DNA of 64,000 nt, taken from IMG/VR virus record IMGVR_UViG_3300020213_000018. One strand, written 5' to 3'. This document shows positions 1 through 61,262 of the stretch, in pieces. The position numbers were made by a program, and so were the translations under genes. Numbering within the stretch: the first letter of the stretch is position 1; each line of letters begins with the position of its first letter. The notes under the pieces were generated by a model, which had not been told where the DNA came from, made no database searches, and saw only the letters and a list, made by a program, of their open reading frames with translations. Source of the stretch: an uncultured virus (IMG/VR IMGVR_UViG_3300020213_000018) (Duplodnaviria > Heunggongvirae > Uroviricota > Caudoviricetes).

Positions 1-228
1 TCTAAGTTTTTTATTAAAGATAAAAAGTGTTTTTTAGAATTAGAAAAATCGGATTTATGGTGCGATTACGATAATATTTGGTCAGTTTTTGAATCGCAAT
101 TTGACATGAACTACAAGCAAATACAAGGCTTTATAAAGGATATGGTGAAAGAACATCTTAATATGAAGGGGGTAACACCCGAGTTCTTTGAACCAGCCTC
201 GGTTATATATGGTGAAAGAACATCTTAA
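1..228 (+). CDS. Partial (5' truncated) hypothetical protein ending ...DMVKEHLNMKGVTPEFFEPASVIYGERTS
   Basis: Frame 1 is open from the window edge to TAA at 226-228 (my translation; not in the ORF track). Confidence 0.6.
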   Translation, partial: SKFFIKDKKCFLELEKSDLWCDYDNIWSVFESQFDMNYKQIQGFIKDMVKEHLNMKGVTPEFFEPASVIYGERTS

Positions 229-289
229 TATGAAGGGGGTAACACCAATAAGGATGGAGTTCAGGAAAAAGTATGAATGAGGTAACACC
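140..289 (+). repeat. 40-bp direct repeat x2 (140-179, 207-246) plus partial GGTAACACC (281-289)
   Basis: ATATGGTGAAAGAACATCTTAATATGAAGGGGGTAACACC is seen twice, 27 bp apart. Confidence 0.9.
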
Positions 290-331
290 AACCATCGAAT
301 AATAATAATTTAAAAAAATAAAAATAAAAAA

Positions 332-646
332 ATGAAAACAACCACATATAAAGAATTGACCTTTAAAAGCGGTGATGTTATTCCCGCTAATACAGAGGTA
401 GAAGTTTTACCGTTAAGGCATAAAACTGAAAATAAAAGCCACCCTACTAAATGCAGATTGTTTTATAATGACAAAGAGTATGGATGTAACTATACTTCTG
501 TTTTTGAACAACCTTCTGAAAGTGAAATACAATCAATGGTATTCGATAGTAATTGCCCGTCAGTAGGTGGGCAATACGATATTGAGCCTGACGGATTCGA
601 CCCCGAAGGTTTCCCTTCATGGTTACAAGCATTAGGAATTGTTTAA
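332..646 (+). CDS. Hypothetical phage protein (C-terminal IEPDG...PSWL motif)
   Basis: 104 aa ORF with A-rich leader, same strand as neighbours. Confidence 0.75.
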   Translation: MKTTTYKELTFKSGDVIPANTEVEVLPLRHKTENKSHPTKCRLFYNDKEYGCNYTSVFEQPSESEIQSMVFDSNCPSVGGQYDIEPDGFDPEGFPSWLQALGIV

Positions 647-11455: not shown

Positions 11456-13330
11456 ATGTCGTATCACAATCCAATACAAATTTTATTAGCTTATGCCAAC
11501 GGAAAGGGCTTCGATATTATTGACGGTGGCGGTGCTTGTCTTGATTACATCAACATTCACACGTTCCTTAAAATAATTGATAACTGCCACTATGTAGCTA
11601 TTGATGAAAAAAATCAGGAAATTATTGACTTGTGCAAAAAGACTAATGAAGAAATTAACGTAGTTCTTAAAGATATTTCGGCATTGAGTAAATCATACGG
11701 TCAGGGTAAAGAAGCACAGGAGAAAGTAGAAAAAATAATTCAGGATTTGCCATTAAAAAAATTGCAATCAATATTAAAATCAAAAAAAGGACGTGATGAT
11801 GCACGTTATTTATCGGATAATCTTTACGATAAAGACAAAGCATCACTTGCCTTTATTGGTCTTCACGAAAATTTAAAAATTGTTGCACAGATACAAGGTC
11901 AAGCTGAGCGTGATGGTCTTACCGAAGTTGTAGATTTAGCTAAAAAACTAGAAGATGCTTTTGAAGATATTTCTAAAATAGCTTGGAAAGGTAGGATAGA
12001 CGATACAAAACTATTAAAAAAATATTCACATAATATTTCAAAAGTGATTAAACCAAACGAAATGATTGTTACACTTGATTCCGCATTGATAGAAGAAAGT
12101 GTTGAAAAAGGTTATGCAGGTAAAAACTTTATTGGTAACAAAGGAGCTAACTTAGTTGAAATGCACAAACTCGGTGTAAGAGTTCCTGACAGTTTATTTT
12201 TGACAACAGTTGCGTGTAAATCAATTCACGAGCAACAGGAAATTTCTTTCATGCCATTACTCAAAAATATTTTGTATATGTTTAAAACAAACAAAATTGC
12301 CATACGCAGTAGCGGTGTTGTTTCTATGGCAGGAATGATGGACACGGTTTTAGATATTGATAAAACCGATGTAAAGGCTGTTACAAAGGCTATAATGGAC
12401 GTGGTTAACTCTTGGGATAGCGATAGAGCAAAATCATTCAGAAAGGTTTGTAAGATGTCCGACGAAGTAAAAATAGCGATTGTTATTCAACCTATGATAC
12501 GTGGTGATGAAGGTTGTTCAGGTATTGTATTTTCACGTAACCCTAATAACGGTTTAAATGAATTGACAGGTGAGTTTGTTGATAAATCACTCGGAGATAA
12601 ATTAGCAAGTGGTAACATAACTCCTTTAGATATTAATAAACTTAATGTAAATATCAAAACAGAACTATTAGATGTTTCTAATAAACTTGAAAAACATTTT
12701 AAGCACATTCAGGATATTGAATTTGTTTATGACAACAAAGACTTATTTTTAGTTCAGACCCGTAATGCAAAACTTTCTCAATTAGCAGAAATCAAAACAC
12801 TAATTGATTTTTACAACGAGGGGTTAATTACACTTGATGAATTTAAGAATAGATATAATGCTGATAAACACAAACAGGTAATTGGTTACGATGTGTTTGG
12901 TGGCACAGGTCATTTGTTTCGTGGTACTCCTGCTGTTAACGGTGTATTCACGGGTAAAGTTACTTTTGTGAGAGAAACAGCCACAGAAGAAAATATTTTA
13001 ATAGTTGATAGCACTTCCCCTAATGATATGCCGTACTTAAATAAAATCGGTGCGTTGATTACAAAGATTGGAGGAATGACCTCACATCCTGCGGTAGTTT
13101 GTCGTGAATTAAAAAAACCATGTGTTGTTGGTGTATCTGAATTAAACTTCAACAAGAGCGTACAATATTTATCGGTTTATATCAATGACGGTAAAGGCGA
13201 AAAAGAAATTTGCGAAGGTGATGTTATTACTGTGGTTGGTGATACAGGTGATGTTTACGAAGGTAGTTGCGAAGTAAAATATAAACAATTGTTCGTTGAT
13301 GAAGTAAACGAAATTTTAAACAGTAATTAA
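11456..13330 (+). CDS. PPDK/PEP-synthase-like phosphotransferase (ATP-grasp + His swivel domain, no pyruvate barrel)
   Basis: IGNKGANL, IRSSGVVSMAGMMDT, QDIEF, VQTR and GGMTSHPAVVCRE motifs. Confidence 0.85.
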   Translation: MSYHNPIQILLAYANGKGFDIIDGGGACLDYINIHTFLKIIDNCHYVAIDEKNQEIIDLCKKTNEEINVVLKDISALSKSYGQGKEAQEKVEKIIQDLPLKKLQSILKSKKGRDDARYLSDNLYDKDKASLAFIGLHENLKIVAQIQGQAERDGLTEVVDLAKKLEDAFEDISKIAWKGRIDDTKLLKKYSHNISKVIKPNEMIVTLDSALIEESVEKGYAGKNFIGNKGANLVEMHKLGVRVPDSLFLTTVACKSIHEQQEISFMPLLKNILYMFKTNKIAIRSSGVVSMAGMMDTVLDIDKTDVKAVTKAIMDVVNSWDSDRAKSFRKVCKMSDEVKIAIVIQPMIRGDEGCSGIVFSRNPNNGLNELTGEFVDKSLGDKLASGNITPLDINKLNVNIKTELLDVSNKLEKHFKHIQDIEFVYDNKDLFLVQTRNAKLSQLAEIKTLIDFYNEGLITLDEFKNRYNADKHKQVIGYDVFGGTGHLFRGTPAVNGVFTGKVTFVRETATEENILIVDSTSPNDMPYLNKIGALITKIGGMTSHPAVVCRELKKPCVVGVSELNFNKSVQYLSVYINDGKGEKEICEGDVITVVGDTGDVYEGSCEVKYKQLFVDEVNEILNSN

Positions 13331-19079: not shown

Positions 19080-20354
19080 ATGCCAAAAACAATCGAACAG
19101 GAAAATAAGAATAAGGATATTGAAAAACAGAATAAAATAAACATGAAACCAATTAAAATTTTCGGAAAAGAAGTGATTGATGACAAATGCATTTATCAAC
19201 TTCAAAACTGTATCGGTGAAAACGATATTGGAGTATTAACAGCAGATGCTCACTATGGTTACGCCCATCCCATAGGTGGTGCTATTGCGTACAAGAATCA
19301 AATTTCATTATCGGGAGTTGGTTTTGATATTGCTTGTGGTAACTATGCAGTAAGAACAAACATCAAGGCTGATGATATTGAAATTTCTAAAGTGATGGAT
19401 GAAATCTTCAAACGTATTTCATTCGGTGTAGGAAGACCAAACGACGAACCTGTTGACCATGCTATTTTTGATAAAATAAGAAATGCAAACTTTTTACCTC
19501 AACGTGAACTTTTGAATTTAGCCATGCCACAACTCGGTACAGTAGGTTCAGGAAATCATTACGTGGATTTATTTCGTGATAACGATGGTATTCTTTGGAT
19601 TGGAGTTCACTTTGGTTCTCGTGGGTTTGGTCATAGAACCGCTATGGGTTTTATTGCATTATCGCAAGGTTTAAAATTCGGAGATAAAGCTAAAGAAGGT
19701 GGAATGGATAAGCCACCAATTCTTTTTGATATTAATTCTGAAATAGGTCAATCTTATATTGAAGCGATGCGCCTTGCGGGTGAATATGCCTATGCAGGTA
19801 GAGAAACTGTTGTTGAAAAAGTATTGGAAATACTAGGAGCAGAAAAAAACTTTGAAGTACACAACCACCATAACTTCGCTTGGCTTGAAGAACATTTTGG
19901 GGAAAAATATTGGGTGGTACGTAAAGGATGTACACCTGCCTTCCCTAATCAATTAGGATTCATTGGAGCTAATATGTTAGACACCTCAGTAATTATTGAG
20001 GGTGTTGATAGTGTAGAATCAAAAGAAGGATTATATTCAACCGTACACGGTGCAGGTAGAGTGATGTCGAGGACGGAAGCTGCGGGTAAAAAGAAATGGA
20101 TTAAAGACGAAAACGGAAGAAAACGTCCTGTTGTAGTTGGTAAAGGTAAAGTTGATTTTGATGCAGTAAGACAAAATATGAAGAATAAAAATATTCAACT
20201 TCGTGGAGCAGGAGCAGATGAAGCTCCCGAGTGTTATAAATCACTTAAAGAAGTTTTATCTTATCAGGGTAATACAATTAAAATTTTGCATGAGTTACAC
20301 CCGATAGGTGTGGCTATGGCAGGAGAACATGAGTACGACCCTTACGCTTTTTGA
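19080..20354 (+). CDS. rtcB: RtcB family RNA ligase
   Basis: DAHYGY, GVGFDIACG, LGTVGSGNHY, HFGSRG, HNHHN, VRKG, HGAGR and DEAPECYK motifs. Confidence 0.95.
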   Translation: MPKTIEQENKNKDIEKQNKINMKPIKIFGKEVIDDKCIYQLQNCIGENDIGVLTADAHYGYAHPIGGAIAYKNQISLSGVGFDIACGNYAVRTNIKADDIEISKVMDEIFKRISFGVGRPNDEPVDHAIFDKIRNANFLPQRELLNLAMPQLGTVGSGNHYVDLFRDNDGILWIGVHFGSRGFGHRTAMGFIALSQGLKFGDKAKEGGMDKPPILFDINSEIGQSYIEAMRLAGEYAYAGRETVVEKVLEILGAEKNFEVHNHHNFAWLEEHFGEKYWVVRKGCTPAFPNQLGFIGANMLDTSVIIEGVDSVESKEGLYSTVHGAGRVMSRTEAAGKKKWIKDENGRKRPVVVGKGKVDFDAVRQNMKNKNIQLRGAGADEAPECYKSLKEVLSYQGNTIKILHELHPIGVAMAGEHEYDPYAF

Positions 20355-21559
20355 GCGTAAAGCCCCTCGCCTTTAGGCAGGGGATATAAGCGACTGTTTT
20401 ATTATTATATTTGAAATTAAATTATGCTAACTTATAAACGAAAATTAAAACTAAATAAACAACAAGAAAACCGACTGAATAGTTGGATTGGTGCTTGTCG
20501 TGTGGTTTATAATTTAGGTTTGGAAATTAGAATTGAAGCATATAAAAATAAGCAGATTAGCGTTTCTGCGTATGATTTAATGAAACAGCTAACCGACATC
20601 AAACATATTGATTGGATTGCGGATGTGCCTTCGCAATCACTACAAAATTCATTGGAGCGTTTGGATAAATCGTACAAAACATTTTTTAGAACTTGTAAAT
20701 CAGGCGGTGGATTTCCAAAATTCAAATCAAAAAGAAACTATAAATCAATACTTTTTAAATCGGCAGAATTAAATAATAAAAATAAAATAAAACTTCCTAA
20801 GATTGGTGAACTAAAATTTTTCAAGGACAAATCACCCATAGTAGGAAAAATAAAAACGGCACAAATAGTAATTGAACCCACAGGTTTTTTTATCTGTATT
20901 GTTTGTGATGAAGTGAGTAAAAATATATCAAACCCTAACGAGAGCCAAGTTATAGGAATAGATATGGGAGTAAATCATTTCGTTGCAGACAGCAATGATA
21001 ACTTTATTGAAAATCCAAGACATTTTTTAAAACACGAAAAAAAACTACGTATTGAAAATAGAAGTTTGTCAAGGAAAAATAAAGGAAGTTCTCGTTGGAA
21101 AAAACAGGTAAAAAAACTAAGTCTATTGCATCACACAATAGCAAATGTTAGAAAAGATTTTTTGCATAAAGAATCTACAATGTTATCTAAACAATACCAC
21201 ACGGTATATTTAGAGGATTTGAGTATAAAAAATATGTCAAAGAATAAAAATCTTTCAAAACACATATTAGATTGCGGTTGGGGAATGTTTAGAACAATGC
21301 TTGAATACAAAACAAATGTATTTGCAGTAAATCCGAAATACACAAGCCAAACCTGTAACGAATGTGGTAAAAAAGATGCAAAGAACAGATTATCACAAAG
21401 TGAGTTTGTTTGTATTAGTTGCGGTCATGTCAGTAATGCTGATACAAACGCTGCGAAAAATATTTTGAGCAAGGGCATTGCTCTCAATCGCAAAAGTAAT
21501 CCGTTAGGATATGCTTTGGTTGAAGAACCTCGTTTCCTTTAGGGACGAGAGTATGTCAG
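20346..21559 (+). mobile_element. Non-autonomous IS200/IS605-family (IS1341-like) element
   Basis: Follows TTAC; left-end hairpin CCCCTCGCC-TTTA-GGCAGGGG; right-end hairpin CTCGTTTCC-TTTA-GGGACGAG ending GTATGTCAG; removing it restores rtcB ...DPYKD*. Confidence 0.85.
20424..21542 (+). CDS. tnpB: RNA-guided endonuclease TnpB
   Basis: N-terminal HTH; RuvC residues IGIDMG, YLEDL, NADTNAA; Zn finger CNEC/CISC; YTSQTC. Confidence 0.95.
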   Translation: MLTYKRKLKLNKQQENRLNSWIGACRVVYNLGLEIRIEAYKNKQISVSAYDLMKQLTDIKHIDWIADVPSQSLQNSLERLDKSYKTFFRTCKSGGGFPKFKSKRNYKSILFKSAELNNKNKIKLPKIGELKFFKDKSPIVGKIKTAQIVIEPTGFFICIVCDEVSKNISNPNESQVIGIDMGVNHFVADSNDNFIENPRHFLKHEKKLRIENRSLSRKNKGSSRWKKQVKKLSLLHHTIANVRKDFLHKESTMLSKQYHTVYLEDLSIKNMSKNKNLSKHILDCGWGMFRTMLEYKTNVFAVNPKYTSQTCNECGKKDAKNRLSQSEFVCISCGHVSNADTNAAKNILSKGIALNRKSNPLGYALVEEPRFL

Positions 21560-43580: not shown

Positions 43581-45089
43581 TTAAATTTGTTTATAATAAG
43601 GTCGCATAAAACATTTTTTATATTTCACGCCATCAAGTTTAACAATATCATCATCCCACCAATGTAATTTTCTACCAAGTGCTGTTTCAATAGTAGATAT
43701 TGAAATTTCTTCACCAAGATAACCTGTAAAATTTGTTTCTTTCATTGAACCGCCTTTAGCGTATGTACCCTTTGCGTGAAATTTAGCATCAATAACTGTT
43801 TGCATATTTTCTTTAGGGTAAATCCCTACATCAAAAGTTTTACCAACAAAATATTTTTTCGCTTCTTCTTCCGAAATAGAACCACTAACGTTTGTTGAGT
43901 AGTTATATTTTGGGTTTTTAAAAATGACATCAACCATACCTAAATTTTTGGTATAGTCATCCATTCCACCACCTTTGGCGTGTTTGTTATCCTTTTCTCT
44001 TAATAATTGTAGCACTTCATTAAAACGAGCAAGTTTAACTTCTCTTTCTTTTCTTAGTGCTTTTGCCTCATCTGATACATCACCCTCACGATAAGTTCCT
44101 AATCTACTACTATTCAAATCTCTTTGAAGTTTACGTAACTCTTTCTCTAAACTTTCAACCACACCGCCTGTGGAGTATCCGTTATCTTTTTTTAGATATT
44201 CAAAAACAATTACGTACCCATCATTTAGCTTATCATCTCCATCTCCATACTTTTTTATTTTCAAATTTCTGTATTCAACAGATTCAGAAGTTTTCATTAA
44301 ATTAAATCTGTTTGTTGCTTCTTTTTTTGTCTTAAACTTTATGGTAGTTCCTTTTCTCCATTCACCAACTACTCCACCTGTTTTCATTTCATCCCAATTA
44401 GTTGAGTTATCCAACCAATCTTTTTCTGATTTAGCATTAACGAACTCTAACCAACTATCCGAAATATGTTCACTTGCTGCATCTGTAACATCCAAATCAT
44501 ATAAAAAATCTTTCTTTTGTTTTTCACTTAATTGATTCCAAATATCTCTTGCCTCCTTATGGCTATCGGGGAACATGGCATACAAATCATTGTAGTCTTT
44601 ATTATTACTTGCGGTTGAACCATCGTTACCCCAATTATCAGAAATTATTTCACCACCTTTTTTATATTCATGCGTTTTACCAAATATATCCGCCATTCTT
44701 TTTTTGAATCCACCGCTTCTCCAAAAATCACTTGCTTCTTTTGAATTAGGATTAATACCTTTTTCTTCTACTTCTTTTTCAAAATCAGAATCTAATTCTG
44801 AAACTTTTTTTGTTTGCTCGGCAGTCCAAACATTACCGCCTTCATCAAACCTCATACCTCTTTTAGCAGATGCTTTTTTATCAGACCTCTCCAAACGATT
44901 CTCGTAATATATATCATCACGCTTACCGTCATGGAAATCTTCAATTTCTGATTGCGTAGGTCTTCCGAATTTATTATCCCCTTTATAGCGGTAGCCTACG
45001 GGTTTACTTTTACGTAACCCATCGGTATGTCTATTATCTCGGTAATCACGCCCCTTTATTATTCTACTTTTTTTCTTTGACATTAACAT
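43581..45089 (-). CDS. GG-delimited modular polyprotein A
   Basis: Six [FYMH]xxGG motifs; N-terminal YYENR..RSD; C-terminal KKCFMRPYY. Confidence 0.8.
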   Translation of the reverse strand: MLMSKKKSRIIKGRDYRDNRHTDGLRKSKPVGYRYKGDNKFGRPTQSEIEDFHDGKRDDIYYENRLERSDKKASAKRGMRFDEGGNVWTAEQTKKVSELDSDFEKEVEEKGINPNSKEASDFWRSGGFKKRMADIFGKTHEYKKGGEIISDNWGNDGSTASNNKDYNDLYAMFPDSHKEARDIWNQLSEKQKKDFLYDLDVTDAASEHISDSWLEFVNAKSEKDWLDNSTNWDEMKTGGVVGEWRKGTTIKFKTKKEATNRFNLMKTSESVEYRNLKIKKYGDGDDKLNDGYVIVFEYLKKDNGYSTGGVVESLEKELRKLQRDLNSSRLGTYREGDVSDEAKALRKEREVKLARFNEVLQLLREKDNKHAKGGGMDDYTKNLGMVDVIFKNPKYNYSTNVSGSISEEEAKKYFVGKTFDVGIYPKENMQTVIDAKFHAKGTYAKGGSMKETNFTGYLGEEISISTIETALGRKLHWWDDDIVKLDGVKYKKCFMRPYYKQI

Positions 45090-45415: not shown

Positions 45416-46630
45416 TTAAATTATAATATTAATTATTTCGTAATATGGTTTCAAAAAACATTTTTTTAGTTTTATTGAACCTACTGTATGAATTGGATAA
45501 TCAAGTTTTTCACTACCTATAACTAATTTCAAATTACTTTCTGCAACTTCATTCTTTTCATTTGCATACTTACGAACTTCGTCTTCAATAGTAGGAGGTA
45601 ATTTTACAGGCTCTTGTAATTTATCATCATCATGTAATTTTTTAATATCACCACCATTTTCCATTTTATGTAAATTTCGATATAATTTTACACGTCGTTG
45701 CCAAAGTCCACCAAGTTGTTCTATCTTATGTAAATCTTCTTTTGTTAATTCTTCTTTACCGTCATTAAGCAAATTCATTTCTTTAGCTTTCCCTTTGATA
45801 TAACCACCTTGCTTATAAAGTTCCTCTGATTTAGGACTTAATAATAATTCATAGACAATATTTTCAGGTCTAATAAATTGCATTTCACCTTCCGTGTATT
45901 TATCTTCTGATATATTACCTGATAATTTTCCAATACCCTGAGTGCCTTGAACAACTTTATATTGAATCTTACCATTCTGCCATTCAGAAATTATTGATTG
46001 AGCATCCTGTTCGTTTTTTGCACCTTCGGTATAAATTGCGTAGTCTTCAATAAATATACCTGCGGTATAAGTATGTTCCCCTGTAACTTTATACAAATTA
46101 ATTACCTTGTACTTTTCTGTACCACTTGAAGATTGCCAACCAAAACCGATACGAATTAAATCAGTTATTATCATCGGAAATGATTTTAATAAATCTGATT
46201 CGGCTATTGTAATATTTTCTGCTTTATCTGAATCACTTTCAATATTACGGGAAAGACCATAAGTTATTTTAAAAACAAACTCGTATCTAACAATATATTC
46301 GTCTTTTTTATTTTTACCTTTTTGTAATTTTTTTATTTCCTGTTGTGCCTCATCATCAGAATTAAATTTTAAAACATTAAAATCCGAATAAGTAGCTTCA
46401 AACGATTTATTTTTTCTATCAATACAATATGGGATATAAAATTGACCTAAGTTAGTATATAAAAGTTCGTCAAATCTAACTCCATTATTATCTACAAATG
46501 TAATGTACGGATGTTTGTGTCTGCTAAAACCCATACCCGCTTCAATAAATCCCGCATTTTGGAAATCAAAACGTTGAGCTTGTTGTTTTTCAACAACAGG
46601 AGCATTATTATTATTATTATTTTCGTTCAC
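45416..46630 (-). CDS. GG-motif protein B
   Basis: YKQGG, MENGG; C-terminal KLKKCFLKPYY; GTG start. Confidence 0.8.
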   Translation of the reverse strand: MNENNNNNNAPVVEKQQAQRFDFQNAGFIEAGMGFSRHKHPYITFVDNNGVRFDELLYTNLGQFYIPYCIDRKNKSFEATYSDFNVLKFNSDDEAQQEIKKLQKGKNKKDEYIVRYEFVFKITYGLSRNIESDSDKAENITIAESDLLKSFPMIITDLIRIGFGWQSSSGTEKYKVINLYKVTGEHTYTAGIFIEDYAIYTEGAKNEQDAQSIISEWQNGKIQYKVVQGTQGIGKLSGNISEDKYTEGEMQFIRPENIVYELLLSPKSEELYKQGGYIKGKAKEMNLLNDGKEELTKEDLHKIEQLGGLWQRRVKLYRNLHKMENGGDIKKLHDDDKLQEPVKLPPTIEDEVRKYANEKNEVAESNLKLVIGSEKLDYPIHTVGSIKLKKCFLKPYYEIINIII

Positions 46631-46939: not shown

Positions 46940-49177
46940 TTACGAATCTTTTAAACAACATTTATTAGAAAAACTTTCTAATGGAACTTTATGATAAATA
47001 ACATCAAATTCTTTTACCGATTTTTCATAAAATTTATCAAGTTTTTTTATAACATGATGTCCAATATTTTCAAAACATTCATTACAATCAGGAGAATCTA
47101 ACTTAAATTTTAAAGTAAATACTTCTTCGGGTATATTTATTTCAATAGGATTTACTACTGCATTAAATATAGGACGACCAAGTTCTTCAAAACAAGTATT
47201 ACAATCATCAATTAATTGATTACGGTCTTTAATCATAGAATTACTGAATGGTCTAATCCAATTAGGTCTTGTGTGAGGTCGTGGCGACATAAATTTAACT
47301 TGTTCCTCTGTACGACTATTACCATCACTACATTCAGTAGATTTATCTAATCTTCCACAAATAGTTTCTTTTGAAGTTAAAATATCAACTTTACTAATTT
47401 GCTTGTAATACATTATAAAAGTAACTTCTGAATTTGGAGCAATAGTATATTGATTAATAGTTGTAAGGCAATCAAGTATCATGTCCTTACATTCAAAATC
47501 AAGTGTTGAAATATTAGGTTGAAATTGGTCAGTAGATATTGTTATATTTGGTAAACGTGGATTAATACATAAATTACCATTAGCATCTTTAGTTTGTATT
47601 TCGAGTGGAACAGTAGTTTGAGCAACACTTTGAGTAAAAAACTGAATCTGTCTTACACAAATAGGATTATTTCTTAAATCCTGAATAAACTCATTGTAAT
47701 CTTGGCTACCAACAATGTAACACATACCTTGTGTACCACAGAGTTTTGATACATTGTCTTGAATCATAGAGCCATTATTATTTCTTGTTACCCAAACAGA
47801 ATTATTAAAACTATCATAGGCAAACGAACCATACTCTATTAAACTCACAACTGTTAATGTTACAGGAACAGTATTAGCAATCGTATTTGTAGCACAGTTA
47901 ATAATAATAATATTATTACCATTATAAAAATCATTGAAATAAATTATATTATAAATATCAATACACATCAATGAAGATGTATTAGAACAAGCTACGGCAT
48001 TTGAATAAGTAAATGAACTTAAAGTAAATTCAACAATATCCGTTCCTGCTGAATTAACATAATAAATAGAATTTTTTGTATCATTATAACAAATAGCACT
48101 TCCCCATAATGATGCAGTAGAAGGAGCAATATAATTTGATATAAGAGTATTTGTAGCAGCATTAATTAAACTAAAACTTGTAGATAATGAGTTAACTGCA
48201 AAAGAAAATGTATTTAAACCATCTACCCAAATAACTATACCTCTAACATCTCCTGCTAATGTAATATAAACCCCTCCTGTGTTTGTAGCACAATCTAACA
48301 CCTCAATATTACCATCAGAACCCATACCTAAATACATTGTATTATTAGTTGGATTAAAAGCAATACTTCTTATATTATTTCCTGATGTAGAACCAAAAGA
48401 ACCTACATAAGTTTCTGTTGCACAATCAATAATATCGAGTGAATTTCCAATAGGCAATAAAGGATTTTGTGTAATATACACTCTATTGTTTATTGGATTA
48501 TAAACAGCTTGACCACCACCTAAACTTATACTTGTTAAAGAAATAGTATTTACAACCGTGTTAGTGTTCGGGTTAATAATATTTAAAAATCTATCATCAA
48601 CAACATAAATTCTATCTGTTGAACTCACATATACGGTTGCGTTATTTAATGCTCCCAAAGGTGGAAAAGGCTGAGTTACAACAGCACACTCAAAAGAAGG
48701 ATAGGTTGTACCTGCCGATGGTGGAAAATTCATAATAGGACTACCTAATGGATTCAAAATAGGAACATAACCATTTGGTGTATTTGGTACAGGTATAATA
48801 GAAAATCCATCAAATAAATTAAATGAACATGGTAAGTTTGTTGGATTTACCATCTTAAATAAAACCGCATTAAATATTTTTTGTAGAGGAAGTTTTAATT
48901 TAAACCTTTTTTCTAAAGGTGGTTTTGGGTAATAAGGATGCCCTATGTTTTCAATACACTCGTTACAATCTACATCAGCCTGAGTATGATGTTCTTGTTT
49001 GTTTTTACGTTTATGTTTTTTTCTAACATTAACATCAACGTGAGTAGGTACAGGCTTAGTATTTGTTTTTGTAATTGTATTTGATTTTATTGGAAAAGGA
49101 GTTACATCACCATTATTAGTATTAATAGGATGAGTGGAATTATTGTTAATTTTATTTATTTTACGATTTTCATCCAT
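46940..49177 (-). CDS. Capsid-paralog protein with inserted YVTN-like beta-propeller (minor capsid/turret candidate)
   Basis: Repeats such as YNPINNRVY..IIDCAT.T; flanks align by eye to 60507-61262; three DCNxCxExxG motifs. Confidence 0.75.
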   Translation of the reverse strand: MDENRKINKINNNSTHPINTNNGDVTPFPIKSNTITKTNTKPVPTHVDVNVRKKHKRKNKQEHHTQADVDCNECIENIGHPYYPKPPLEKRFKLKLPLQKIFNAVLFKMVNPTNLPCSFNLFDGFSIIPVPNTPNGYVPILNPLGSPIMNFPPSAGTTYPSFECAVVTQPFPPLGALNNATVYVSSTDRIYVVDDRFLNIINPNTNTVVNTISLTSISLGGGQAVYNPINNRVYITQNPLLPIGNSLDIIDCATETYVGSFGSTSGNNIRSIAFNPTNNTMYLGMGSDGNIEVLDCATNTGGVYITLAGDVRGIVIWVDGLNTFSFAVNSLSTSFSLINAATNTLISNYIAPSTASLWGSAICYNDTKNSIYYVNSAGTDIVEFTLSSFTYSNAVACSNTSSLMCIDIYNIIYFNDFYNGNNIIIINCATNTIANTVPVTLTVVSLIEYGSFAYDSFNNSVWVTRNNNGSMIQDNVSKLCGTQGMCYIVGSQDYNEFIQDLRNNPICVRQIQFFTQSVAQTTVPLEIQTKDANGNLCINPRLPNITISTDQFQPNISTLDFECKDMILDCLTTINQYTIAPNSEVTFIMYYKQISKVDILTSKETICGRLDKSTECSDGNSRTEEQVKFMSPRPHTRPNWIRPFSNSMIKDRNQLIDDCNTCFEELGRPIFNAVVNPIEINIPEEVFTLKFKLDSPDCNECFENIGHHVIKKLDKFYEKSVKEFDVIYHKVPLESFSNKCCLKDS

Positions 49178-50022
49178 TATGTTTTTACAGGTGTAGAATC
49201 GGTTTTAACAAAACATTTTTGGACTTGTCCTTTTGAGAATTTATCAATAAAATCTTTAATAATTTTATATCGCTTATGATTAGATTTATTGTTAGCATCT
49301 TTGAATACATACAAAAATGCTTGATGCGCTTCTATATCAGGGAAATCTTGCGATAAATAAATCATTAATCCATTTATATCAGCACCACTTTCATAACTGA
49401 TAGGACGATTAATTTTTGGATTCATCCATTTATGAGAATACTCATGCAGTAAAATAATTATTCTCATCGGTACAGTATATTTCAAAAATGCTGATTTTGA
49501 AATTTCTATAACACCCGAACCATGACCAATCCTAGCAGGTGTGCTAACAAACCTACCTGTTTTTCTATCACGTATCTTGATATAATAATCAATAGTGAAT
49601 TGATTACTTTCATCTCTATAAATATGTGGGATTCTATCACCCGCAGTAAAATTTGAAGCGTTCTCTGCAAACTTTTTTGCAAATTTTAAAAATGCAACTG
49701 TTTCAGGCGACATCCATATTGGACAAACTCTTGATTTTTCAATTTGTATTTTAGTTACCTTAAAACTACGGTCTTCTCCATTCCTTTGTAGTCCGTTTGC
49801 TGCATTATAAACTGCAAGTAAAGTGTTTTTAGGACTAAGTGGCATTTTTACTTCGTAAGTTCTTTCTCCATTTAAAATATCTTTTCTGTTTTCATACATA
49901 GTTGGATAAATTTTTTGCTTATCCAAGTCTGATGCCACAATACGAATAACTTGTGGTGAATTTGTTTTCACAGAAATTTTTATTGTAACAGGTTTTTTAT
50001 TAGTTTTTATTGGCAGTATCAT
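49177..50022 (-). CDS. Zincin-like metalloprotease
   Basis: IILLHEYSH (HEXXH) followed by ESGAD. Confidence 0.75.
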   Translation of the reverse strand: MILPIKTNKKPVTIKISVKTNSPQVIRIVASDLDKQKIYPTMYENRKDILNGERTYEVKMPLSPKNTLLAVYNAANGLQRNGEDRSFKVTKIQIEKSRVCPIWMSPETVAFLKFAKKFAENASNFTAGDRIPHIYRDESNQFTIDYYIKIRDRKTGRFVSTPARIGHGSGVIEISKSAFLKYTVPMRIIILLHEYSHKWMNPKINRPISYESGADINGLMIYLSQDFPDIEAHQAFLYVFKDANNKSNHKRYKIIKDFIDKFSKGQVQKCFVKTDSTPVKT

Positions 50023-55316: not shown

Positions 55317-56558
55317 TTATATTTTTATGTAACAACCTCTTAAAAATTGTTTCTTTAATTTAGTGTTACCAACATGACAAACAGGATAGCAAGGTTTACG
55401 ACCAATAATGTTTTCAAAATCTGAACATAAAATTTCATTTTTACCATCTAACTTAGCTAACACTAAATCTTCTTCTGATTTTTTAACATCACCACCTTTA
55501 GCGTATTCTATTTTTTTACCAAATTTATCAGTAATCATATTTATTCCACTCTCAACACTCTCAAATCCTGCTTCTTTTTCAGCTTCATAAAGTGCGCTAT
55601 CTTCGTCTTTTGCAAAACCAACCCAATCGTGGCTTTTTCCATATTTACTGTTTATTGTTACTGCCCATTCAGGAATGTTTTTATTTTCACCAACCCCACC
55701 GCCTTTAGACATTTTAGATAAATCATAATTAGAAGCCCAATTATCAAATTCACGAATGGCATTTGTATTACCATATTTATCTTCTAAAAGTCTAACTTCT
55801 TTTTGACCAAAGTTTTCATAAAGACCTTTAGATTTTGCTTTTGAAATAAGCATTAATTTATATTTTTCTATGTCTTTTGATTCGTTACCAACCCCACCGC
55901 CTTTAGCAAATTTTTCAGAAACATAACCTTCTTCAATTAAAAATTTAGTTAAGTCTTCGGGTGAAAAATCTAAACCGTTAGGTTTAACATCATAATAACT
56001 ACCTCTCTCATCAAGTAAATATTGATAAGTTTCTTTTTCAAAATCATACCCTTTCTTTTTCAAGTAGGCTAAAAACTCTTTAAATTCTTTTGCTTCTTGA
56101 TTAGAAATTGCCTGATTATAAAATTCTTCCAAATCTTCATATTCTAATCCATCTTTAACGAATCCATCAGCAGGTTTTCCGAAAACAAATGCAGCTTCTC
56201 CATTATATCCTGTTGTTTCAGAAACGATATTTTTTGGATGATTTTTTTTGAAATAAGCTATTGAAACTTTATCTCCAAAATCACCTGCGTAATCCGAATA
56301 ACTAAATTGTATAACGGTATCATCTTCTTTTATTTTTGATTTTAATTTCTTCTTTAATGAAGCAGAACCAAAACTGTTGCCTATTTCATCATGCGAAACA
56401 ACTTCACCGCCTTTAGCAAATTTCTTTGTACGGTTTACATCAGAACGATTAGGTCTGTTTTCGTAATAAACATTTCCATCTTCCGATGTGCGTTTACCTG
56501 CGTGTAAAGCCTTTATTTTTTTATCTTTTTTTATAGATGCCTTAGTTCTTTTTGTCAT
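55317..56558 (-). CDS. GG-delimited modular polyprotein C
   Basis: FAKGG x2, MSKGG, YAKGG; N-terminal YYENRPNRSD; C-terminal KLKKQFLRGCY. Confidence 0.8.
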   Translation of the reverse strand: MTKRTKASIKKDKKIKALHAGKRTSEDGNVYYENRPNRSDVNRTKKFAKGGEVVSHDEIGNSFGSASLKKKLKSKIKEDDTVIQFSYSDYAGDFGDKVSIAYFKKNHPKNIVSETTGYNGEAAFVFGKPADGFVKDGLEYEDLEEFYNQAISNQEAKEFKEFLAYLKKKGYDFEKETYQYLLDERGSYYDVKPNGLDFSPEDLTKFLIEEGYVSEKFAKGGGVGNESKDIEKYKLMLISKAKSKGLYENFGQKEVRLLEDKYGNTNAIREFDNWASNYDLSKMSKGGGVGENKNIPEWAVTINSKYGKSHDWVGFAKDEDSALYEAEKEAGFESVESGINMITDKFGKKIEYAKGGDVKKSEEDLVLAKLDGKNEILCSDFENIIGRKPCYPVCHVGNTKLKKQFLRGCYIKI

Positions 56559-56583: not shown

Positions 56584-58716
56584 TTATGTTGCAGGTATTA
56601 ATTTAGCTGCACCTTTACCTTTGTTTACATACCAAATAATTCCTATTACTGTAAGTCCAACAGCAGTTGCAACGATAGCAAAATTTATCGGGTGCATACC
56701 TAAAATAGTTTTCTCACCTTTAGGAGAATCACCACCTCTTGATATATCACCTTCACCTTCGGTAGAAGTTTCACCCGCAGCTTGTTTTGATTTTGCTTGT
56801 AAGAAAGCAGCACCAAATTGTGCTATTGAGTTCATTAAATTTTTAGCACCCTCAGATTTTGTCCACTCAGAAAATGGTTTTGTACTTCCGCTACTTTCGT
56901 AAACAGCTTTCATTTCATCTTCTGTGTAAACTACTTTATTTTTATCAGCTAATATAGCAGCTTGTTCTTTAGTTAGTGCCTTACTTTTTTTATTAGCTTT
57001 ATTTTCTGCTCTTTTTTCTTTACTAAAAACTCCTTTTGCCCAATCTCCAAAAGCGTTTGACATTTCTTCGCTTCCGTCGAAAGCTAACATATCACCACCA
57101 CCATGATAATCTTCTTCTAATGCACCACCATTAAATGATAAATTATCATTAAGACGACGATTAGTATTAACTTTCATTTCTCTACGTTGCATACGTGAAA
57201 AACCATCAGCACCTAAATCCATATTTTGATTAACATCAAGTGCGGGTCTTCTGCTTCCATTAAAACCTAAATCAAGATTTGTGTTTGATGTAAAATCACT
57301 TTCACCATCAGCACCTAAATCAAGATTTGTGTTTGATGTAAAATCACTTTCACCATCAGCACCTAAATCCATATTTTGAGTAATATCAAGTTCGGGTCTT
57401 CTGCTTCCATTAAAACCTAAATCCCAATTAATATTATTATTAGCATCAAACCCTAAATCAAGATTGTTTAGTGTAACATCCATTGCGGGTCTATTACGGC
57501 TTCCATCAGAACCTAAGTCAAGGTTTGTATTTCCGTCAAATCCTAAATCAAGATTAGTATTACCATCTAAAGAAGATTTTTTAATTCCTTTTTTAAGGCT
57601 ACGATTACGACCACGATTTACATAACGACGATTACGACGACGTGGATGTTTACGACGTGGACGTGATACTCTACCTCCCTGAACACTTAAATCAATATTT
57701 GTATTTCCGTCAAAAGATAAATCAAGGGTTGTATTTCCATCTAAAGAAGAAGTTGATTTTTTAATAGCTAAACGTTTTTTAATAATTGGTCTAACTGCAC
57801 CAATATGAACTAACATATTTGCCTTATTATTTTCTCCAATCTTAATAAAACCTGCTGATTTTGTTATTACTGATATAGCTTTTGTTTTTTTATCTTTCTT
57901 TCTGAACTTAAAATTACCTTTAGGTAAAATAGTTCCTGAAACTTTAGAACCTTTACCTAGTTTTCTTTTTGTAAAGTGAATAACACCTGTTGATTTATCC
58001 TGTGCAAATACTTTCGCTTGTGGTTTTACTACTCTGAATTTTTTAGAACCATCAGCACTTGAACTATCACCGTCAAATGATAAATCTAAAGATGTATTAC
58101 CATCGAATGATAAATCAAGATTTGTGTTTGAAGTGAAATCACTTTCACCATCAAATCCTAAATCCAAATCTGTATTACCATCAAAAGACACACTTACTTC
58201 TTTAATTTTTTTTTCAACTCCTTTAGCCCAAGTAATCTGTTCAGGACTAACACCATATTTTCCTTCATTTTTTAAAATGTATTGGTAATATGGTATTGCT
58301 TTTTCAGCATCAATATAATTGTACGGAGCATTTTTATCCATCTTCAACATTTTACGTAAAGTACCTTGATACTTAACGAATACTAAGTTGGCTCTTACTC
58401 TTGAAATACGACCAAGTGCTTTATCTTTTTGTTTAACAGGAACACCTTTTTGGCTATCAGGAACTTTATAATAATCGCTATCTTCTATAACCATCCAATC
58501 ATTATCGGGTGCTTGTAAAGTTTGAATACCTACCGATACGTTTGTAACAGGTCTTGGCTTTTTATCATAACAAGCATTTGTTTTTTCGTTAGCAACATTA
58601 GACTTGTCATTAGGTTGTATAATTATTTTATTATCATAATTACAAACCTGAATATTTTGTCCTTTTTTACCTTTAACGGGAACAGTTTTGAATATTTCAT
58701 TTTTATTGATAGCCAT
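56584..58716 (-). CDS. Large tail-anchored protein with NTNLDL[GS][FA]DG repeats
   Basis: About 15-20 motif copies interleaved with basic domains; KTILGM-TM tail. Confidence 0.85.
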   Translation of the reverse strand: MAINKNEIFKTVPVKGKKGQNIQVCNYDNKIIIQPNDKSNVANEKTNACYDKKPRPVTNVSVGIQTLQAPDNDWMVIEDSDYYKVPDSQKGVPVKQKDKALGRISRVRANLVFVKYQGTLRKMLKMDKNAPYNYIDAEKAIPYYQYILKNEGKYGVSPEQITWAKGVEKKIKEVSVSFDGNTDLDLGFDGESDFTSNTNLDLSFDGNTSLDLSFDGDSSSADGSKKFRVVKPQAKVFAQDKSTGVIHFTKRKLGKGSKVSGTILPKGNFKFRKKDKKTKAISVITKSAGFIKIGENNKANMLVHIGAVRPIIKKRLAIKKSTSSLDGNTTLDLSFDGNTNIDLSVQGGRVSRPRRKHPRRRNRRYVNRGRNRSLKKGIKKSSLDGNTNLDLGFDGNTNLDLGSDGSRNRPAMDVTLNNLDLGFDANNNINWDLGFNGSRRPELDITQNMDLGADGESDFTSNTNLDLGADGESDFTSNTNLDLGFNGSRRPALDVNQNMDLGADGFSRMQRREMKVNTNRRLNDNLSFNGGALEEDYHGGGDMLAFDGSEEMSNAFGDWAKGVFSKEKRAENKANKKSKALTKEQAAILADKNKVVYTEDEMKAVYESSGSTKPFSEWTKSEGAKNLMNSIAQFGAAFLQAKSKQAAGETSTEGEGDISRGGDSPKGEKTILGMHPINFAIVATAVGLTVIGIIWYVNKGKGAAKLIPAT
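57200..58190 (-). repeat. Coding repeat arrays (LDLG[FA]DG units, including a 48-bp tandem duplication near 57265-57370)
   Basis: ACCTAAATCAAGATTTGTGTTTGATGTAAAATCACTTTCACCATCAGC is repeated; ends approximate. Confidence 0.85.
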
Positions 58717-60506: not shown

Positions 60507-61262
60507 TTACCCACCAATCTGACGTACTTTCGGACGCATAGAACGTGGAGCAACGTACACAGGCATTGCAGCAACAGCTACACTTGGAGAAGCGTATTGT
60601 TGTAATGCGCCTTGACCGTTAAGGTTACGACTAATATTGGCTTTCTCAGCAGGGAACATTGTTATAACTACTGTTGTAGAACCCAATACGGTAAATTGTA
60701 GGTTAGTGTTACCATCAATTTTTACAGCATAAGGCACATCTAAAATTCCACTTTGGAATTGATTAGCTGAGAAATAAGACTGCGTGATTAATGGAATTTG
60801 GCACAATTGACCGTTAGCATCTTTCGATGTAATGGTGATAATTTGAGTTATCTGTGCTGTGTTTGTTGATTGAATACGAATCAACGACGTTTCAAACGGT
60901 TGTGATGCCGATTGTTGTAGTAACTCTAAATAACTTACGTTAGTTTGAGAAGGGATTACTGTAATACCTACTGCCGAACCGAAGTTTGGTGTCAATAGAA
61001 ATTGGTTCATACCAAAAAGTGTTGCTGTTAACGGAGTAACAGTTGAGTTGGTAATAGACACCTGATAAGGTGAAGGTTGTTTACGAGCAACAGGAGCAAC
61101 ACTTCCACCTTCTACTTCATAATAATCACCGTCAGCACCATAATCACCATCGAATCCTAAGTCAAGGTTTGTATTTCCCTCGAACTCAGAATCCCCATCG
61201 AAGCCACTAAATTGTGCTTCTGCTTGACGCAAATATGCGTCAATGTCGAAATTGTTTTTCAT
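60507..61262 (-). CDS. Putative major capsid protein (beta-rich, jelly-roll candidate) with acidic repeat leader
   Basis: Heads the structural arm, has its own terminator, ~160 aa mostly beta-strand pattern, basic C-terminal tail, paralog at 46940; fold is inferred. Confidence 0.6.
   Translation of the reverse strand: MKNNFDIDAYLRQAEAQFSGFDGDSEFEGNTNLDLGFDGDYGADGDYYEVEGGSVAPVARKQPSPYQVSITNSTVTPLTATLFGMNQFLLTPNFGSAVGITVIPSQTNVSYLELLQQSASQPFETSLIRIQSTNTAQITQIITITSKDANGQLCQIPLITQSYFSANQFQSGILDVPYAVKIDGNTNLQFTVLGSTTVVITMFPAEKANISRNLNGQGALQQYASPSVAVAAMPVYVAPRSMRPKVRQIGG

What the first reader, a model, noticed from the sequence alone, without database searches (positions are those of the whole stretch)
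46940..49177. Capsid paralog split by a beta-propeller insertion
Seen: the 745-aa protein aligns by eye to the capsid candidate in two pieces. The N part FKMVNPTNLPCSFNLF matches VSITNSTVTPLTATLF. The C part DYNEFIQ...QTKDANGNLCINP...STDQFQPNI...NSEVTFIMY matches SYLELLQ...TSKDANGQLCQIP...SANQFQSGI...STTVVITMF. About 350 aa with YVTN-like blades lie between them, and three DCNxCxExxG motifs sit in the termini. Inference: a minor capsid, penton or turret protein that displays a receptor-binding propeller from a capsid loop.
Basis: seen in the sequence. Interest (0 to 1): 0.82.

Follow-up and report, generated by a model that had tools for sequence, protein, structure and literature searches.

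The report
Virion beta-sandwich split by swappable propeller
A 745-residue protein of an uncultured huge Bacteroidota virus is a jelly-roll-like beta-sandwich, related to the virus's most conserved protein, with a whole seven-bladed beta-propeller inserted in one loop; relatives carry a different propeller or none, as host-binding modules often do.

Summary
The C part aligns with the 251-aa protein (BLASTP E 4e-8; hhalign E 2e-12). The N part is weak alone (E 0.039). An unsplit 221-aa paralogue in a related 375-kb contig supports it: it matches the 745-aa protein in two colinear pieces (96-135 and 487-631) and the 251-aa protein in one gapless piece. Residues 136-486 are therefore an insertion. 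AlphaFold2 folds them as a seven-bladed YVTN/YncE-like propeller. Of 151 family members, 31 are unsplit, 105 carry a stretch before the C part and 14 have 2-3 sandwich copies. Directly downstream of a conserved HExxH gene, four relatives carry a YVTN-type propeller and five carry a DUF5122 propeller, so the insert is swapped. The sandwich halves are more conserved than the propeller (about 69% against 46% identity). "Capsid" is not shown: the 251-aa model is only a generic jelly roll (best Z 5.9). However, no terminase, portal or HK97 capsid gene was found in the relatives, which do encode a conserved HerA/FtsK-type ATPase, and 27 of 37 neighbouring genes encode membrane-anchored proteins. Best reading: a virion-surface protein with a conserved anchor and an exchangeable binding propeller. 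Its place on the virion is unknown.

The parts
46940..49177 (-). Whole gene, 745 aa plus stop: a split beta-sandwich with an inserted propeller
   Evidence: ORF list and translation; 26 homologues at E <= 1e-3
48893..49177 (-). N-terminal extension, residues 1-95. Low-confidence and basic. Holds motif 1, DCNECIENIG, at 48941-48970.
   Evidence: pLDDT 26-38. Absent from the 8 shorter members of alignment A2. Motif found by regex.
48773..48892 (-). N part of the sandwich, residues 96-135 (two beta-strands, 101-111 and 117-121)
   Evidence: N111, T113 and F122 are invariant in A2, with the same spacing as the invariant N72, T74 and F83 of the 251-aa family. pLDDT 75-80.
47720..48772 (-). Insertion, residues 136-486: a seven-bladed YVTN/YncE-like beta-propeller (blades 180-481; strand 160-168 probably closes the ring)
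   Evidence: The AF2 model has 27 strands in 180-481 plus strand 160-168, with pLDDT mostly 80-93. Foldseek: archaeal S-layer YVTN propeller 1l0q at E 7.5e-16; E. coli YncE at TM 0.79, rmsd 3.7. This stretch is missing from the unsplit paralogue.
47390..47719 (-). C part of the sandwich, residues 487-596
   Evidence: phmmer with this part found 159 cluster representatives at E <= 1e-3.
46943..47389 (-). C-terminal extension, residues 597-745. Low-confidence. Holds motif 2, DCNTCFEELG (47177-47206), and motif 3, DCNECFENIG (47060-47089).
   Evidence: pLDDT 29-53; alignment A2
60507..61262 (-). First gene of the minus-strand block and the most conserved protein of the window.
   Evidence: 363 homologues at E <= 1e-3, the best 120 at 51-100% identity. 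85% identical to its counterpart in the 375-kb relative, the highest among real ORFs. AF2 core pLDDT 85-93.
49177..50022 (-). Upstream neighbour, 281 aa, with an invariant HE[YF]SH motif (49432-49446). Its stop overlaps the start of the 745-aa gene.
   Evidence: The gene pair is adjacent in 4 of 4 YVTN-type loci (window, G001, G002, G003:C16) and in 5 DUF5122-type loci. No Pfam or PHROG match.

Best explanation
The 745-aa protein is a structural protein on the surface of the virion of an uncultured huge Bacteroidota virus.

Its jelly-roll-like beta-sandwich (residues 96-135 plus 487-596) is the conserved part. This domain is shared with the virus's most conserved protein (251 aa). It most likely holds the protein in the particle, by taking the place of that protein or by binding beside it.

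A complete seven-bladed propeller (within residues 136-486) is inserted in the loop between the second and third strand. It projects from the sandwich as the ligand-binding part, most likely recognising a structure on the host surface.

Evolution treats the propeller as a cassette. At the same locus, relatives carry a YVTN-type propeller, a DUF5122-type propeller or both genes in tandem. Other paralogues carry no insert or several sandwich copies.

Shown: the homology, the insertion point, the propeller fold, the swapping, and the unequal conservation of the parts. Inferred: the location in the virion, the anchoring role of the sandwich, and the binding role of the propeller.
For: Homology and insertion point.

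Secondary structure elements of the two AF2 models correspond one to one. In the 251-aa model: E66-72, E78-83, E100-104, H111-120, E123-132, H135-138, E142-147, E153-158, E173-176, E187-192, E196-208. In the 745-aa model: E101-111, E117-121, [insert], E487-490, H494-503, E506-515, H518-521, E525-530, E536-538, E556-560, E572-579, E583-593.

Propeller fold.

Family architectures among 151 sequences: 31 unsplit; 105 with 60 or more residues before the C part; 14 with 2-3 copies; 1 not matched. Of 127 stretches of 80 aa or more, 102 are YVTN-like, 9 DUF5122-like and 16 neither. Pfam DUF5122 matched 7 of 30 scanned proteins at E 5e-16 to 3e-98.

Same-locus swap: a YVTN-type gene follows the HExxH gene in 4 of 4 loci. 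A DUF5122-type gene follows it in 5 of the 39 metagenome loci fetched; L059 has both types in tandem.

Conservation among the 10 long members: sandwich halves 70% and 68%, propeller 46%. Against P0127-P0130 the sandwich is 62-77% identical and the propeller 32-35%.

Context: the gene lies in a 32-kb minus-strand block with fibre-like proteins, membrane-anchored cell-wall hydrolases and many membrane proteins; 27 of 37 ORFs have a hydrophobic segment. The 745-aa and 251-aa proteins have none.
Against: No experiment or proteome places either protein in a particle.

The sandwich fold matches are weak and mixed: Foldseek against PDB gave nothing at E <= 1e-3, the best VIA Z is 5.9, and BFVD gave 6 rows at E <= 1e-3, of mixed kinds.

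The tools returned no coordinates, so I could not check contacts between the N and C parts in the 745-aa model. That the flanks form one domain rests on the unsplit homologues, the matching secondary structure and the pLDDT of 75-80.

YVTN/lactonase-type propellers can also be enzymes, and some homologues give weak arylesterase, lactonase or SGL matches in Pfam. The conserved pairing with an HExxH protein could point to an enzymatic role instead.
Confidence: 0.6

Rival explanations
1. The 251-aa protein is the major (single-jelly-roll) capsid protein of a tailless, membrane-containing virus. The 745-aa protein is a minor capsid, penton or turret paralogue that sits in the lattice and displays the propeller from a capsid loop.
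For: The 251-aa protein is the most conserved protein and the first gene of the late block. Its best fold rows include jelly rolls of EhV-201, PBCV-1, PRD1 and FLiP capsid proteins and a 124-residue PR772 chain (Z 4.8-5.9).

No terminase, portal or HK97 capsid protein was found in two roughly 100-kb relatives or in the colinear 375-kb contig. That contig was covered only in part. Of its 107 ORFs of 250 aa or more, 69 went through Pfam; 6 of the 8 that span two loci went through PHROGs only; about 30 that are colinear with the window were not scanned themselves, only their window counterparts.

The relatives encode a conserved 278-aa HerA/FtsK-type ATPase. 24 of 35 members match PF01935 and the best PDB hits are HerA. 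It occurs on contigs of the same lengths as the 251-aa family. 27 of 37 ORFs in the block have hydrophobic segments. Precedent: penton paralogues P1 and P1v1 of PBCV-1 differ by a large insertion (PMC9617893, passages read).
Against: Z <= 5.9 lies within the range the tool describes as a common arrangement. Nucleoplasmin, cement proteins, lectins and TNF/C1q-like heads score alike. As far as I recall, no single-jelly-roll capsid is known for genomes of 100-375 kb. Failure to detect divergent hallmark genes by Pfam or PHROGs is not absence. Small HerA-like ATPases also have other roles. Family members with 2-3 tandem sandwiches, and one of 3813 aa, fit fibres or spikes as well as a lattice.
Confidence: 0.3
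2. It is a receptor-binding or fibre-associated protein of a tailed huge phage whose head genes are too divergent to detect. The sandwich is a trimerising or adaptor domain of the TNF/C1q-like or decoration type, not a capsid-shell protein.
For: Collagen-like and tail-fibre-like PHROG matches occur in the same block (phrog_30509 at 8e-7, phrog_9942 at 1.7e-6) and elsewhere in the 375-kb relative. Foldseek rows for the 251-aa model include PRD1 P5, exosporium ExsFA, BxpB and BclA, the Bc2L-C lectin, TL1A and a cyanophage short-tail-fibre domain. BFVD rows include collagen-repeat proteins and a tail fibre protein. Module exchange is typical of phage receptor-binding proteins (established knowledge).
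Against: No sheath, tube, baseplate, tape-measure, portal or terminase match was found in the relatives. The fibre matches rest on Gly-rich repeats. The extreme conservation of the 251-aa protein is unusual for a fibre tip.
Confidence: 0.2
3. It is not structural. It is a propeller enzyme or binding protein that acts on the host envelope during infection or lysis, together with the adjacent HExxH protein. The sandwich is a carbohydrate-binding-type module.
For: The gene is paired with an HE[YF]SH protein in every locus examined where the upstream gene could be seen. Cell-wall enzymes are neighbours: amidase, SLT, GH19, a GDSL esterase and a PG-binding domain. Homologues give weak Pfam matches to lactonase, arylesterase and SGL. 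Fold rows for the sandwich include CBM-like and lectin domains.
Against: The propeller is the least conserved part and is replaced by an unrelated propeller family at the same locus. That is hard to reconcile with a fixed catalytic role. There is no signal peptide or membrane segment. No catalytic family reaches its threshold on the window protein.
Confidence: 0.12
4. The two-piece similarity is chance or compositional, and there is no real insertion.
For: The N part alone is weak: hhalign E 0.039, probability 1.3%. BLASTP misses it.
Against. 31 unsplit homologues have the N and C parts 10-20 residues apart. The invariant N-x-T-(8)-F spacing is shared by both families.
Confidence: 0.01

Closest known systems
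PBCV-1 penton protein P1 and its variant P1v1 (PMC9617893; passages found by term search were read)
   Same: Two paralogous virion proteins share one jelly roll at low sequence identity. One of them carries a much larger loop insertion that folds into extra domains on the outside of the particle.
   Different: In PBCV-1 the insertion lies in the DE loop and forms two beta-rich domains, not a propeller, and capsid membership is solved by cryo-EM. Here the insertion lies between the second and third predicted strand, is a complete seven-bladed propeller, is swapped between relatives, and the location in the particle is unknown.
Mavirus and Sputnik penton protein: single jelly roll with a 139-residue insertion domain between strands D and E (PMC6048507; passages read)
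   Same: A jelly roll with a variable domain nested in one loop, proposed to serve in recognition.
   Different: The virophage insert is a small beta-sandwich, and the proteins form solved pentamers of a DJR-capsid virus. There is no sequence relationship, and the fold match of the 251-aa model to the mavirus MCP is only Z 4.3.
YVTN beta-propeller of an archaeal S-layer protein (PDB 1l0q) and E. coli YncE (3vgz, 7seu)
   Same: The insert has the same seven-bladed propeller fold (Foldseek E 7.5e-16; YncE TM 0.79, rmsd 3.7 over 343 columns). Homologues P0159 and P0169 reach the Pfam Lactonase and YNCE models.
   Different: Those propellers are terminal or stand-alone domains, not nested in another domain. 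The window protein itself reaches no Pfam propeller threshold. Sequence identity is 14-16%.
PRD1-type vertex proteins (P31 penton, P5 spike, P2 receptor-binding protein). Their roles are recalled from memory. PRD1 P5 and a 124-residue PR772 chain do appear among the fold rows.
   Same: Jelly-roll modules reused in vertex and spike proteins of a membrane-containing phage that is packaged by an FtsK/HerA-type ATPase.
   Different: PRD1 has a 15-kb genome, a DJR major capsid protein and separate spike proteins rather than a propeller nested in a jelly roll. The fold matches are weak (E 6.5e-3; Z 5.5).
Modular receptor-binding proteins of tailed phages (general knowledge, recalled)
   Same: A conserved anchoring part with an exchangeable distal binding part, and tandem paralogues with different specificities.
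   Different: In those proteins the exchange is usually at the C-terminus. Here the exchanged module is nested inside the conserved domain, so both junctions must be preserved.

Membership tests
Split-sandwich family defined here (no Pfam or PHROG entry) | The N-part motif (V-x-F-x-x-V-N-P-T...F-x-L-F) followed, directly or after an insert, by the C part (Y-N-x-F...KDANGN...Q-F-Q...Y-Y-K-Q) | tested here: met
   HMMs built from A2: N part at 98-126 (4e-17) and C part at 486-596 (9e-56) in the window protein. The same order occurs in most of the 151 family members.
YVTN/YncE-type seven-bladed beta-propeller | Seven four-stranded blades closing into a ring | tested here: met
   The AF2 model has 27 strands in 180-481 plus strand 160-168. 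Foldseek: 1l0q at E 7.5e-16; YncE at TM 0.79.
YVTN/YncE-type seven-bladed beta-propeller | The Pfam model (PF10282 Lactonase or PF21783 YNCE) reaches its gathering score | tested here: inconclusive
   The window protein gives only PF25174 at E 0.088, far under its cut-off. Family members P0159 (29.3 bits) and P0169 (35.8 bits) pass PF10282, cut-off 21.7.
Viral single-jelly-roll capsid or penton proteins | A two-sheet jelly-roll fold that clearly superposes on solved capsid jelly rolls | tested here: inconclusive
   251-aa model: best Z 5.9 (EhV-201 MCP), 5.5 (PR772, PBCV-1), 5.2 (FLiP), mixed with non-capsid sandwiches. Foldseek against PDB found nothing at E <= 1e-3.
Viral single-jelly-roll capsid or penton proteins | Forms pentamers or hexamers in an icosahedral shell | not testable with these tools
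   This needs particles, cryo-EM or proteomics.
Viral single-jelly-roll capsid or penton proteins | Genome also encodes an FtsK/HerA-type packaging ATPase and lacks terminase, portal and HK97 capsid genes | tested here: inconclusive
   A conserved 278-aa HerA-like ATPase lies at G003:C16 96573-97409, outside the window. No caudoviral hallmark genes were detected in G001, G002 or C16. Coverage of C16 was partial, and sequence profiles can miss divergent genes.
Double jelly-roll major capsid proteins | Two jelly rolls in one chain | tested here: not met
   The window protein has one C-part match. 14 of 151 relatives have 2-3 copies, but none was shown to be a DJR MCP.
Penton proteins with an insertion domain (mavirus, Sputnik, PBCV-1) | Insertion between jelly-roll strands D and E | tested here: inconclusive
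   Here the insertion lies between the second and third predicted strand. I could not assign strand letters without coordinates.
TNF/C1q-like trimeric jelly-roll heads | Fold match and trimer formation | tested here: inconclusive
   Weak Foldseek rows only: PRD1 P5 at E 6.5e-3, plus ExsFA, BclA and TL1A. The oligomeric state was not established.

The most novel reading that the evidence does not exclude
The sandwich family comprises the shell and vertex proteins of an unrecognised lineage of huge (about 100 to at least 375 kb), tailless, membrane-containing viruses of Bacteroidota. These viruses would be built from single jelly rolls and packaged by a HerA/FtsK-type ATPase. The 745-aa protein would be their vertex or turret variant, displaying an exchangeable propeller as the receptor-binding device. 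That would be a bacterial counterpart of giant-virus penton variants, in a genome size class so far known in bacteria only for tailed phages.
Probability: 0.2. Interest if true: 0.92.

Novelty: new variant of a known kind. Interest (0 to 1): 0.68.

Why it matters
Domains nested in jelly-roll loops are known from penton proteins. Here a whole propeller is nested in a small sandwich and is exchanged between relatives at a fixed locus for an unrelated propeller family. This is a clean natural example of cassette exchange by domain insertion, where both junctions must be kept. It also offers a handle for predicting host-binding specificity in an abundant, uncultured virus group: 159 cluster representatives for this domain and 363 homologues for the 251-aa protein.

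The family also marks a virus lineage that shows no recognisable tailed-phage hallmark genes across 375 kb but does have a conserved HerA-type ATPase, jelly-roll paralogues and an unusually membrane-rich late block. If these are shell proteins, the lineage would change what kinds of particles are thought to carry very large bacterial virus genomes.

Tried and rejected
- Pfam and PHROGs on the 745-aa and 251-aa proteins gave nothing usable.
- tblastn of both proteins against 50,697 phage records found no match.
- No whole genome is held for the window, and earlier findings were not open.
- The ESM Atlas gave only unnamed viral clusters for the 251-aa protein and for a 530-aa neighbour of the ATPase.
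- Complex prediction with two copies of the 251-aa core plus residues 95-600 of the 745-aa protein returned 'no answer' (score 0.00, controls not run). It counts neither for nor against binding.
- phmmer of the ATPase and of the 530-aa protein against PDB sequences found nothing significant.
- tblastn of three other proteins, looking for a cultured relative, found only scattered hits. The best was one gene of a 462-kb uncultured phage and of Cellulophaga phages. None of these records holds the 251-aa or 745-aa family.
- P0143 was not found in viral contigs.
- Alignment A2 was too divergent for a pattern scan of metagenome contigs.
- Stop-codon recoding, as a reason for missing hallmark genes, was rejected. 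Coverage of the 375-kb contig by frames of 100 aa or more is 86% under code 11, and 88% or 90% with TAG or TGA read through, with no region rescued.
- The CxxC motif as a general virion signal was rejected. It occurs only in the window's 745-aa protein, not in C16, G002, L048 or L059.
- Three literature searches found no description of this family. That does not show it is unpublished.
Full report
**What is at the coordinates**

Window 46940-49177 holds a single ORF of 745 aa on the minus strand. It lies in a 32-kb block of minus-strand genes (29.5-61.3 kb). GC content is about 30% throughout. Neither protein matches a Pfam or PHROG family; the only row is PF25174 at E 0.088. Neither has a tblastn match in 50,697 phage records.

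**Is the two-piece similarity real?**

- C part. BLASTP aligns residues 494-590 with 111-203 of the 251-aa protein (30% identity, E 4e-8). I built family alignments: A1, 38 sequences drawn from 363 homologues, and A2, 18 of 26 homologues. hhalign of A1 against A2 gives probability 97.7 and E 2.2e-12 over 95 columns.
- N part. After residues 136-482 were deleted from A2 in a script, the alignment becomes continuous over 133 columns at E 7.1e-16.
- Unsplit paralogue. A 221-aa protein in a related 375-kb contig settles the question. It matches the 745-aa protein in two colinear pieces: 96-135 to 12-55 (E 7e-7) and 487-631 to 59-201 (E 3e-39). It matches the 251-aa protein in one gapless piece, 67-181 to 22-136 (E 1e-11).
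- Conclusion. Residues 136-486 (351 aa) are an insertion into a domain that is contiguous elsewhere.
- Invariant residues. Both families keep N-x-T-(8)-F at the same spacing: N72/T74/F83 and N111/T113/F122.

**Folds**

- The 251-aa model has a confident core (pLDDT 85-93 over about 61-140 and 181-210).
- The 745-aa model has a confident propeller (180-481, mostly 80-93) and a moderately confident sandwich (75-83).
- The strands and helices of the two sandwiches correspond one to one, with the insert between the second and third strand.
- The insert has 27 strands plus strand 160-168, which makes seven four-stranded blades. It matches the archaeal S-layer YVTN propeller (E 7.5e-16) and YncE (TM 0.79).
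- The sandwich is only a generic jelly roll. Foldseek against PDB finds nothing at E <= 1e-3. The exhaustive VIA search tops out at Z 5.9, with capsid jelly rolls (EhV-201, GFLV, PR772, PBCV-1, FLiP, PRD1) mixed with nucleoplasmin, cement proteins, lectins and CBMs. BFVD gives 6 weak rows of mixed kinds.
- The tools return no coordinates, so I could not inspect N-C contacts directly.

**The family**

phmmer with the C part alone (residues 480-610) against 1.84 billion cluster representatives found 159 proteins at E <= 1e-3 and 88 at E <= 1e-10. I mapped N-part and C-part HMMs on the 150 listed proteins plus the window protein, 151 in all.

| Architecture | Count of 151 |
|---|---|
| Unsplit (N part at about 10-40, C part at about 50-165) | 31 |
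| One sandwich with 60 or more residues before the C part (typically N at 10-40, C at 350-480; some are 5'-truncated fragments) | 105 |
| 2-3 sandwich copies | 14 |
| Not matched by my C-part HMM (P0242, 3813 aa, 7 stretches) | 1 |

Of 127 intervening stretches of 80 aa or more:

- 102 match a YVTN-type HMM.
- 9 match a DUF5122-type HMM.
- 16 match neither. Twelve of these are 81-89-aa spacers of tandem forms; the other four are stretches of 384, 428, 131 and 98 aa.

Pfam confirms DUF5122 (PF17164) in 7 of 30 scanned proteins at E 5e-16 to 3e-98.

**Swapping at one locus**

- In the window, in two IMG/VR contigs (G001, G002) and in the 375-kb contig G003:C16, the gene directly follows a 281-aa gene with an invariant HE[YF]SH motif. 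That is 4 of 4 loci, all with YVTN-type inserts.
- I fetched 39 metagenome loci with the DUF5122-type protein P0143. In 5 of them (L048, L051, L053, L059, L062) a homologue of the same HExxH gene (E about 1e-102) sits directly upstream of an ORF with the N part followed by DUF5122 repeats.
- In L048, L051 and L059 that ORF is complete and ends in the C part. Three more loci (L049, L050, L052) are 5'-truncated ORFs with DUF5122 plus the C part.
- L048 and L059 also hold a homologue of the 251-aa protein 6 kb upstream.
- L059 has a second, YVTN-type split-sandwich gene directly downstream.
- The remaining loci hold DUF5122 proteins without sandwich parts.

**Conservation**

Among the 10 long members of A2, mean pairwise identity is:

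| Region | Identity |
|---|---|
| Sandwich N part | 70% |
| Sandwich C part | 68% |
| Propeller | 46% |
| N-terminal extension | 33% |
| C-terminal extension | 42% |

Against P0127-P0130 the sandwich is 62-77% identical and the propeller 32-35%.

**Termini and motifs**

- Residues 1-95 and 597-745 are low-confidence. They are absent from the 8 shorter family members in A2.
- The three DCNxCxExxG motifs (residues 70-79, 658-667, 697-706) occur only in this protein within the window.
- They do not occur in C16, G002, L048 or L059. In more distant long homologues the cysteines are partly lost.
- Their role (metal bridging, docking or processing) is unknown.

**What kind of virus?**

- The window is colinear with 110-204 kb of G003:C16. 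This is a 375,071-bp contig binned with a Bacteroidota MAG, with about 31% GC throughout. The other four genome hits are also in Bacteroidota MAGs.
- Against C16, the 251-aa protein is the most conserved real ORF, at 85% identity.
- Hallmark genes. I found no terminase, portal, HK97 capsid, sheath or baseplate match:
  - G002: Pfam on 91 ORFs and PHROGs on 69.
  - G001, G002 and G003: six-frame family searches.
  - C16: coverage was partial. Of its 107 ORFs of 250 aa or more, 69 went through Pfam. Of the 8 that span two loci, 6 were scanned with PHROGs only. About 30 ORFs colinear with the window were not scanned themselves; I relied on their window counterparts. PHROGs covered 25 + 29 proteins of C16.
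  - Window.
- Sequence profiles can miss divergent genes, and the window's own genome is not held.
- Recoding does not explain the absence.
- C16 encodes a 278-aa P-loop ATPase (Walker A GTKGVGKT). It has 214 conserved homologues. 24 of 35 sampled match the HerA central domain and 10 of 35 match Zot. The best PDB sequence hits are HerA at E 0.0065. A weak PHROG row is labelled 'terminase large subunit' (4.5e-5).
- In the window block, 27 of 37 ORFs have a hydrophobic 19-mer (mean Kyte-Doolittle value of 1.6 or more). These include anchored cell-wall enzymes: GH19, SLT and a GDSL esterase.
- These features fit a membrane-containing, non-tailed particle but do not prove one. A tailed huge phage with undetectable head genes remains possible.

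**Comparison with what is known**

- The closest analogues are penton proteins with nested domains. Mavirus and Sputnik have a single jelly roll with a 139-residue insertion domain (PMC6048507, passages read). PBCV-1 has P1 and its paralogue P1v1, whose much larger DE insertion forms two domains at the unique vertex (PMC9617893, passages read).
- This case differs in four ways: the insert is a complete propeller; it lies in a different loop, by strand order; it is exchanged between relatives; and capsid membership is unproven.
- Three literature searches found no description of this family.

**Verdict**

The 'capsid, penton or turret' and 'receptor-binding' halves remain inference. I rate the general reading, a virion-surface protein with a conserved anchor and an exchangeable binding propeller, at 0.6. 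The strict capsid-lattice version is at 0.3.

Noticed in passing
whole window; G003:C16 (L023-L041): The window is colinear with 110-204 kb of a 375-kb, 31%-GC contig from a Bacteroidota MAG. That contig carries phage-like genes: homing endonucleases, RecT, RNA ligase, thymidylate synthase, a tRNA synthetase fragment, NAD-salvage enzymes and polyvalent proteins of up to 3006 aa. No terminase, portal or HK97 capsid match was found by Pfam or PHROGs in the ORFs scanned.
   Followed up: partly
G003:C16 96573-97409 (L027:16573-17409), outside the window: A 278-aa P-loop ATPase of the HerA/FtsK type. It is as conserved as the 251-aa protein (214 homologues) and is found on contigs of the same lengths. 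It is a possible packaging ATPase of the kind used by tailless jelly-roll viruses.
   Followed up: partly
window 29533-61262 (-): 27 of 37 ORFs in the block have a hydrophobic segment. Six proteins share an [IV][LF]G[ML] motif just before a C-terminal anchor. The GH19, SLT, GDSL-esterase and PG-binding proteins are themselves anchored.
   Followed up: partly
window 56584-58716 (-) and 60507-61262 (-): An acidic motif, N-L-D-L-G-F-D-G, occurs 10 times in the 710-aa membrane-anchored protein and once in the disordered N-terminus of the 251-aa protein. It may be a shared docking motif.
   Followed up: no
window 43581-45089, 45416-46630, 55317-56558 (-): Three paralogous proteins (502, 404 and 413 aa) with repeated K-G-G / N-G-G motifs all end in K[LY]KK[CQ]F[LM][KR]. 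They have no family match.
   Followed up: no
window 49177-50022 (-): A 281-aa protein with an invariant HE[YF]SH motif (a possible zinc peptidase). It always lies directly upstream of the split-sandwich gene and overlaps its start codon.
   Followed up: partly
L059:9998-14136: One relative carries two split-sandwich genes in tandem, the first with a DUF5122 propeller and the second with a YVTN propeller.
   Followed up: partly
G003:C16 101645-102442 (L028:1645-2442) and 350410-351075 (L020:1327-1992): Two further paralogues in the 375-kb relative: a 265-aa copy of the 251-aa type with an N-terminal membrane helix, and the unsplit 221-aa copy of the 745-aa type, far from the late block.
   Followed up: partly
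P0242: A 3813-aa protein matched the C part in 7 stretches by phmmer but was not matched by my C-part HMM. It may be a giant multi-sandwich protein.
   Followed up: no
window 19080-21542 (+) and 11456-13330 (+): An RtcB RNA ligase, a TnpB/IS605 OrfB-type gene and a PEP-utilising (PPDK-like) enzyme lie in the plus-strand early region. A P22 gp17-like superinfection-exclusion domain lies at 639-1379.
   Followed up: no
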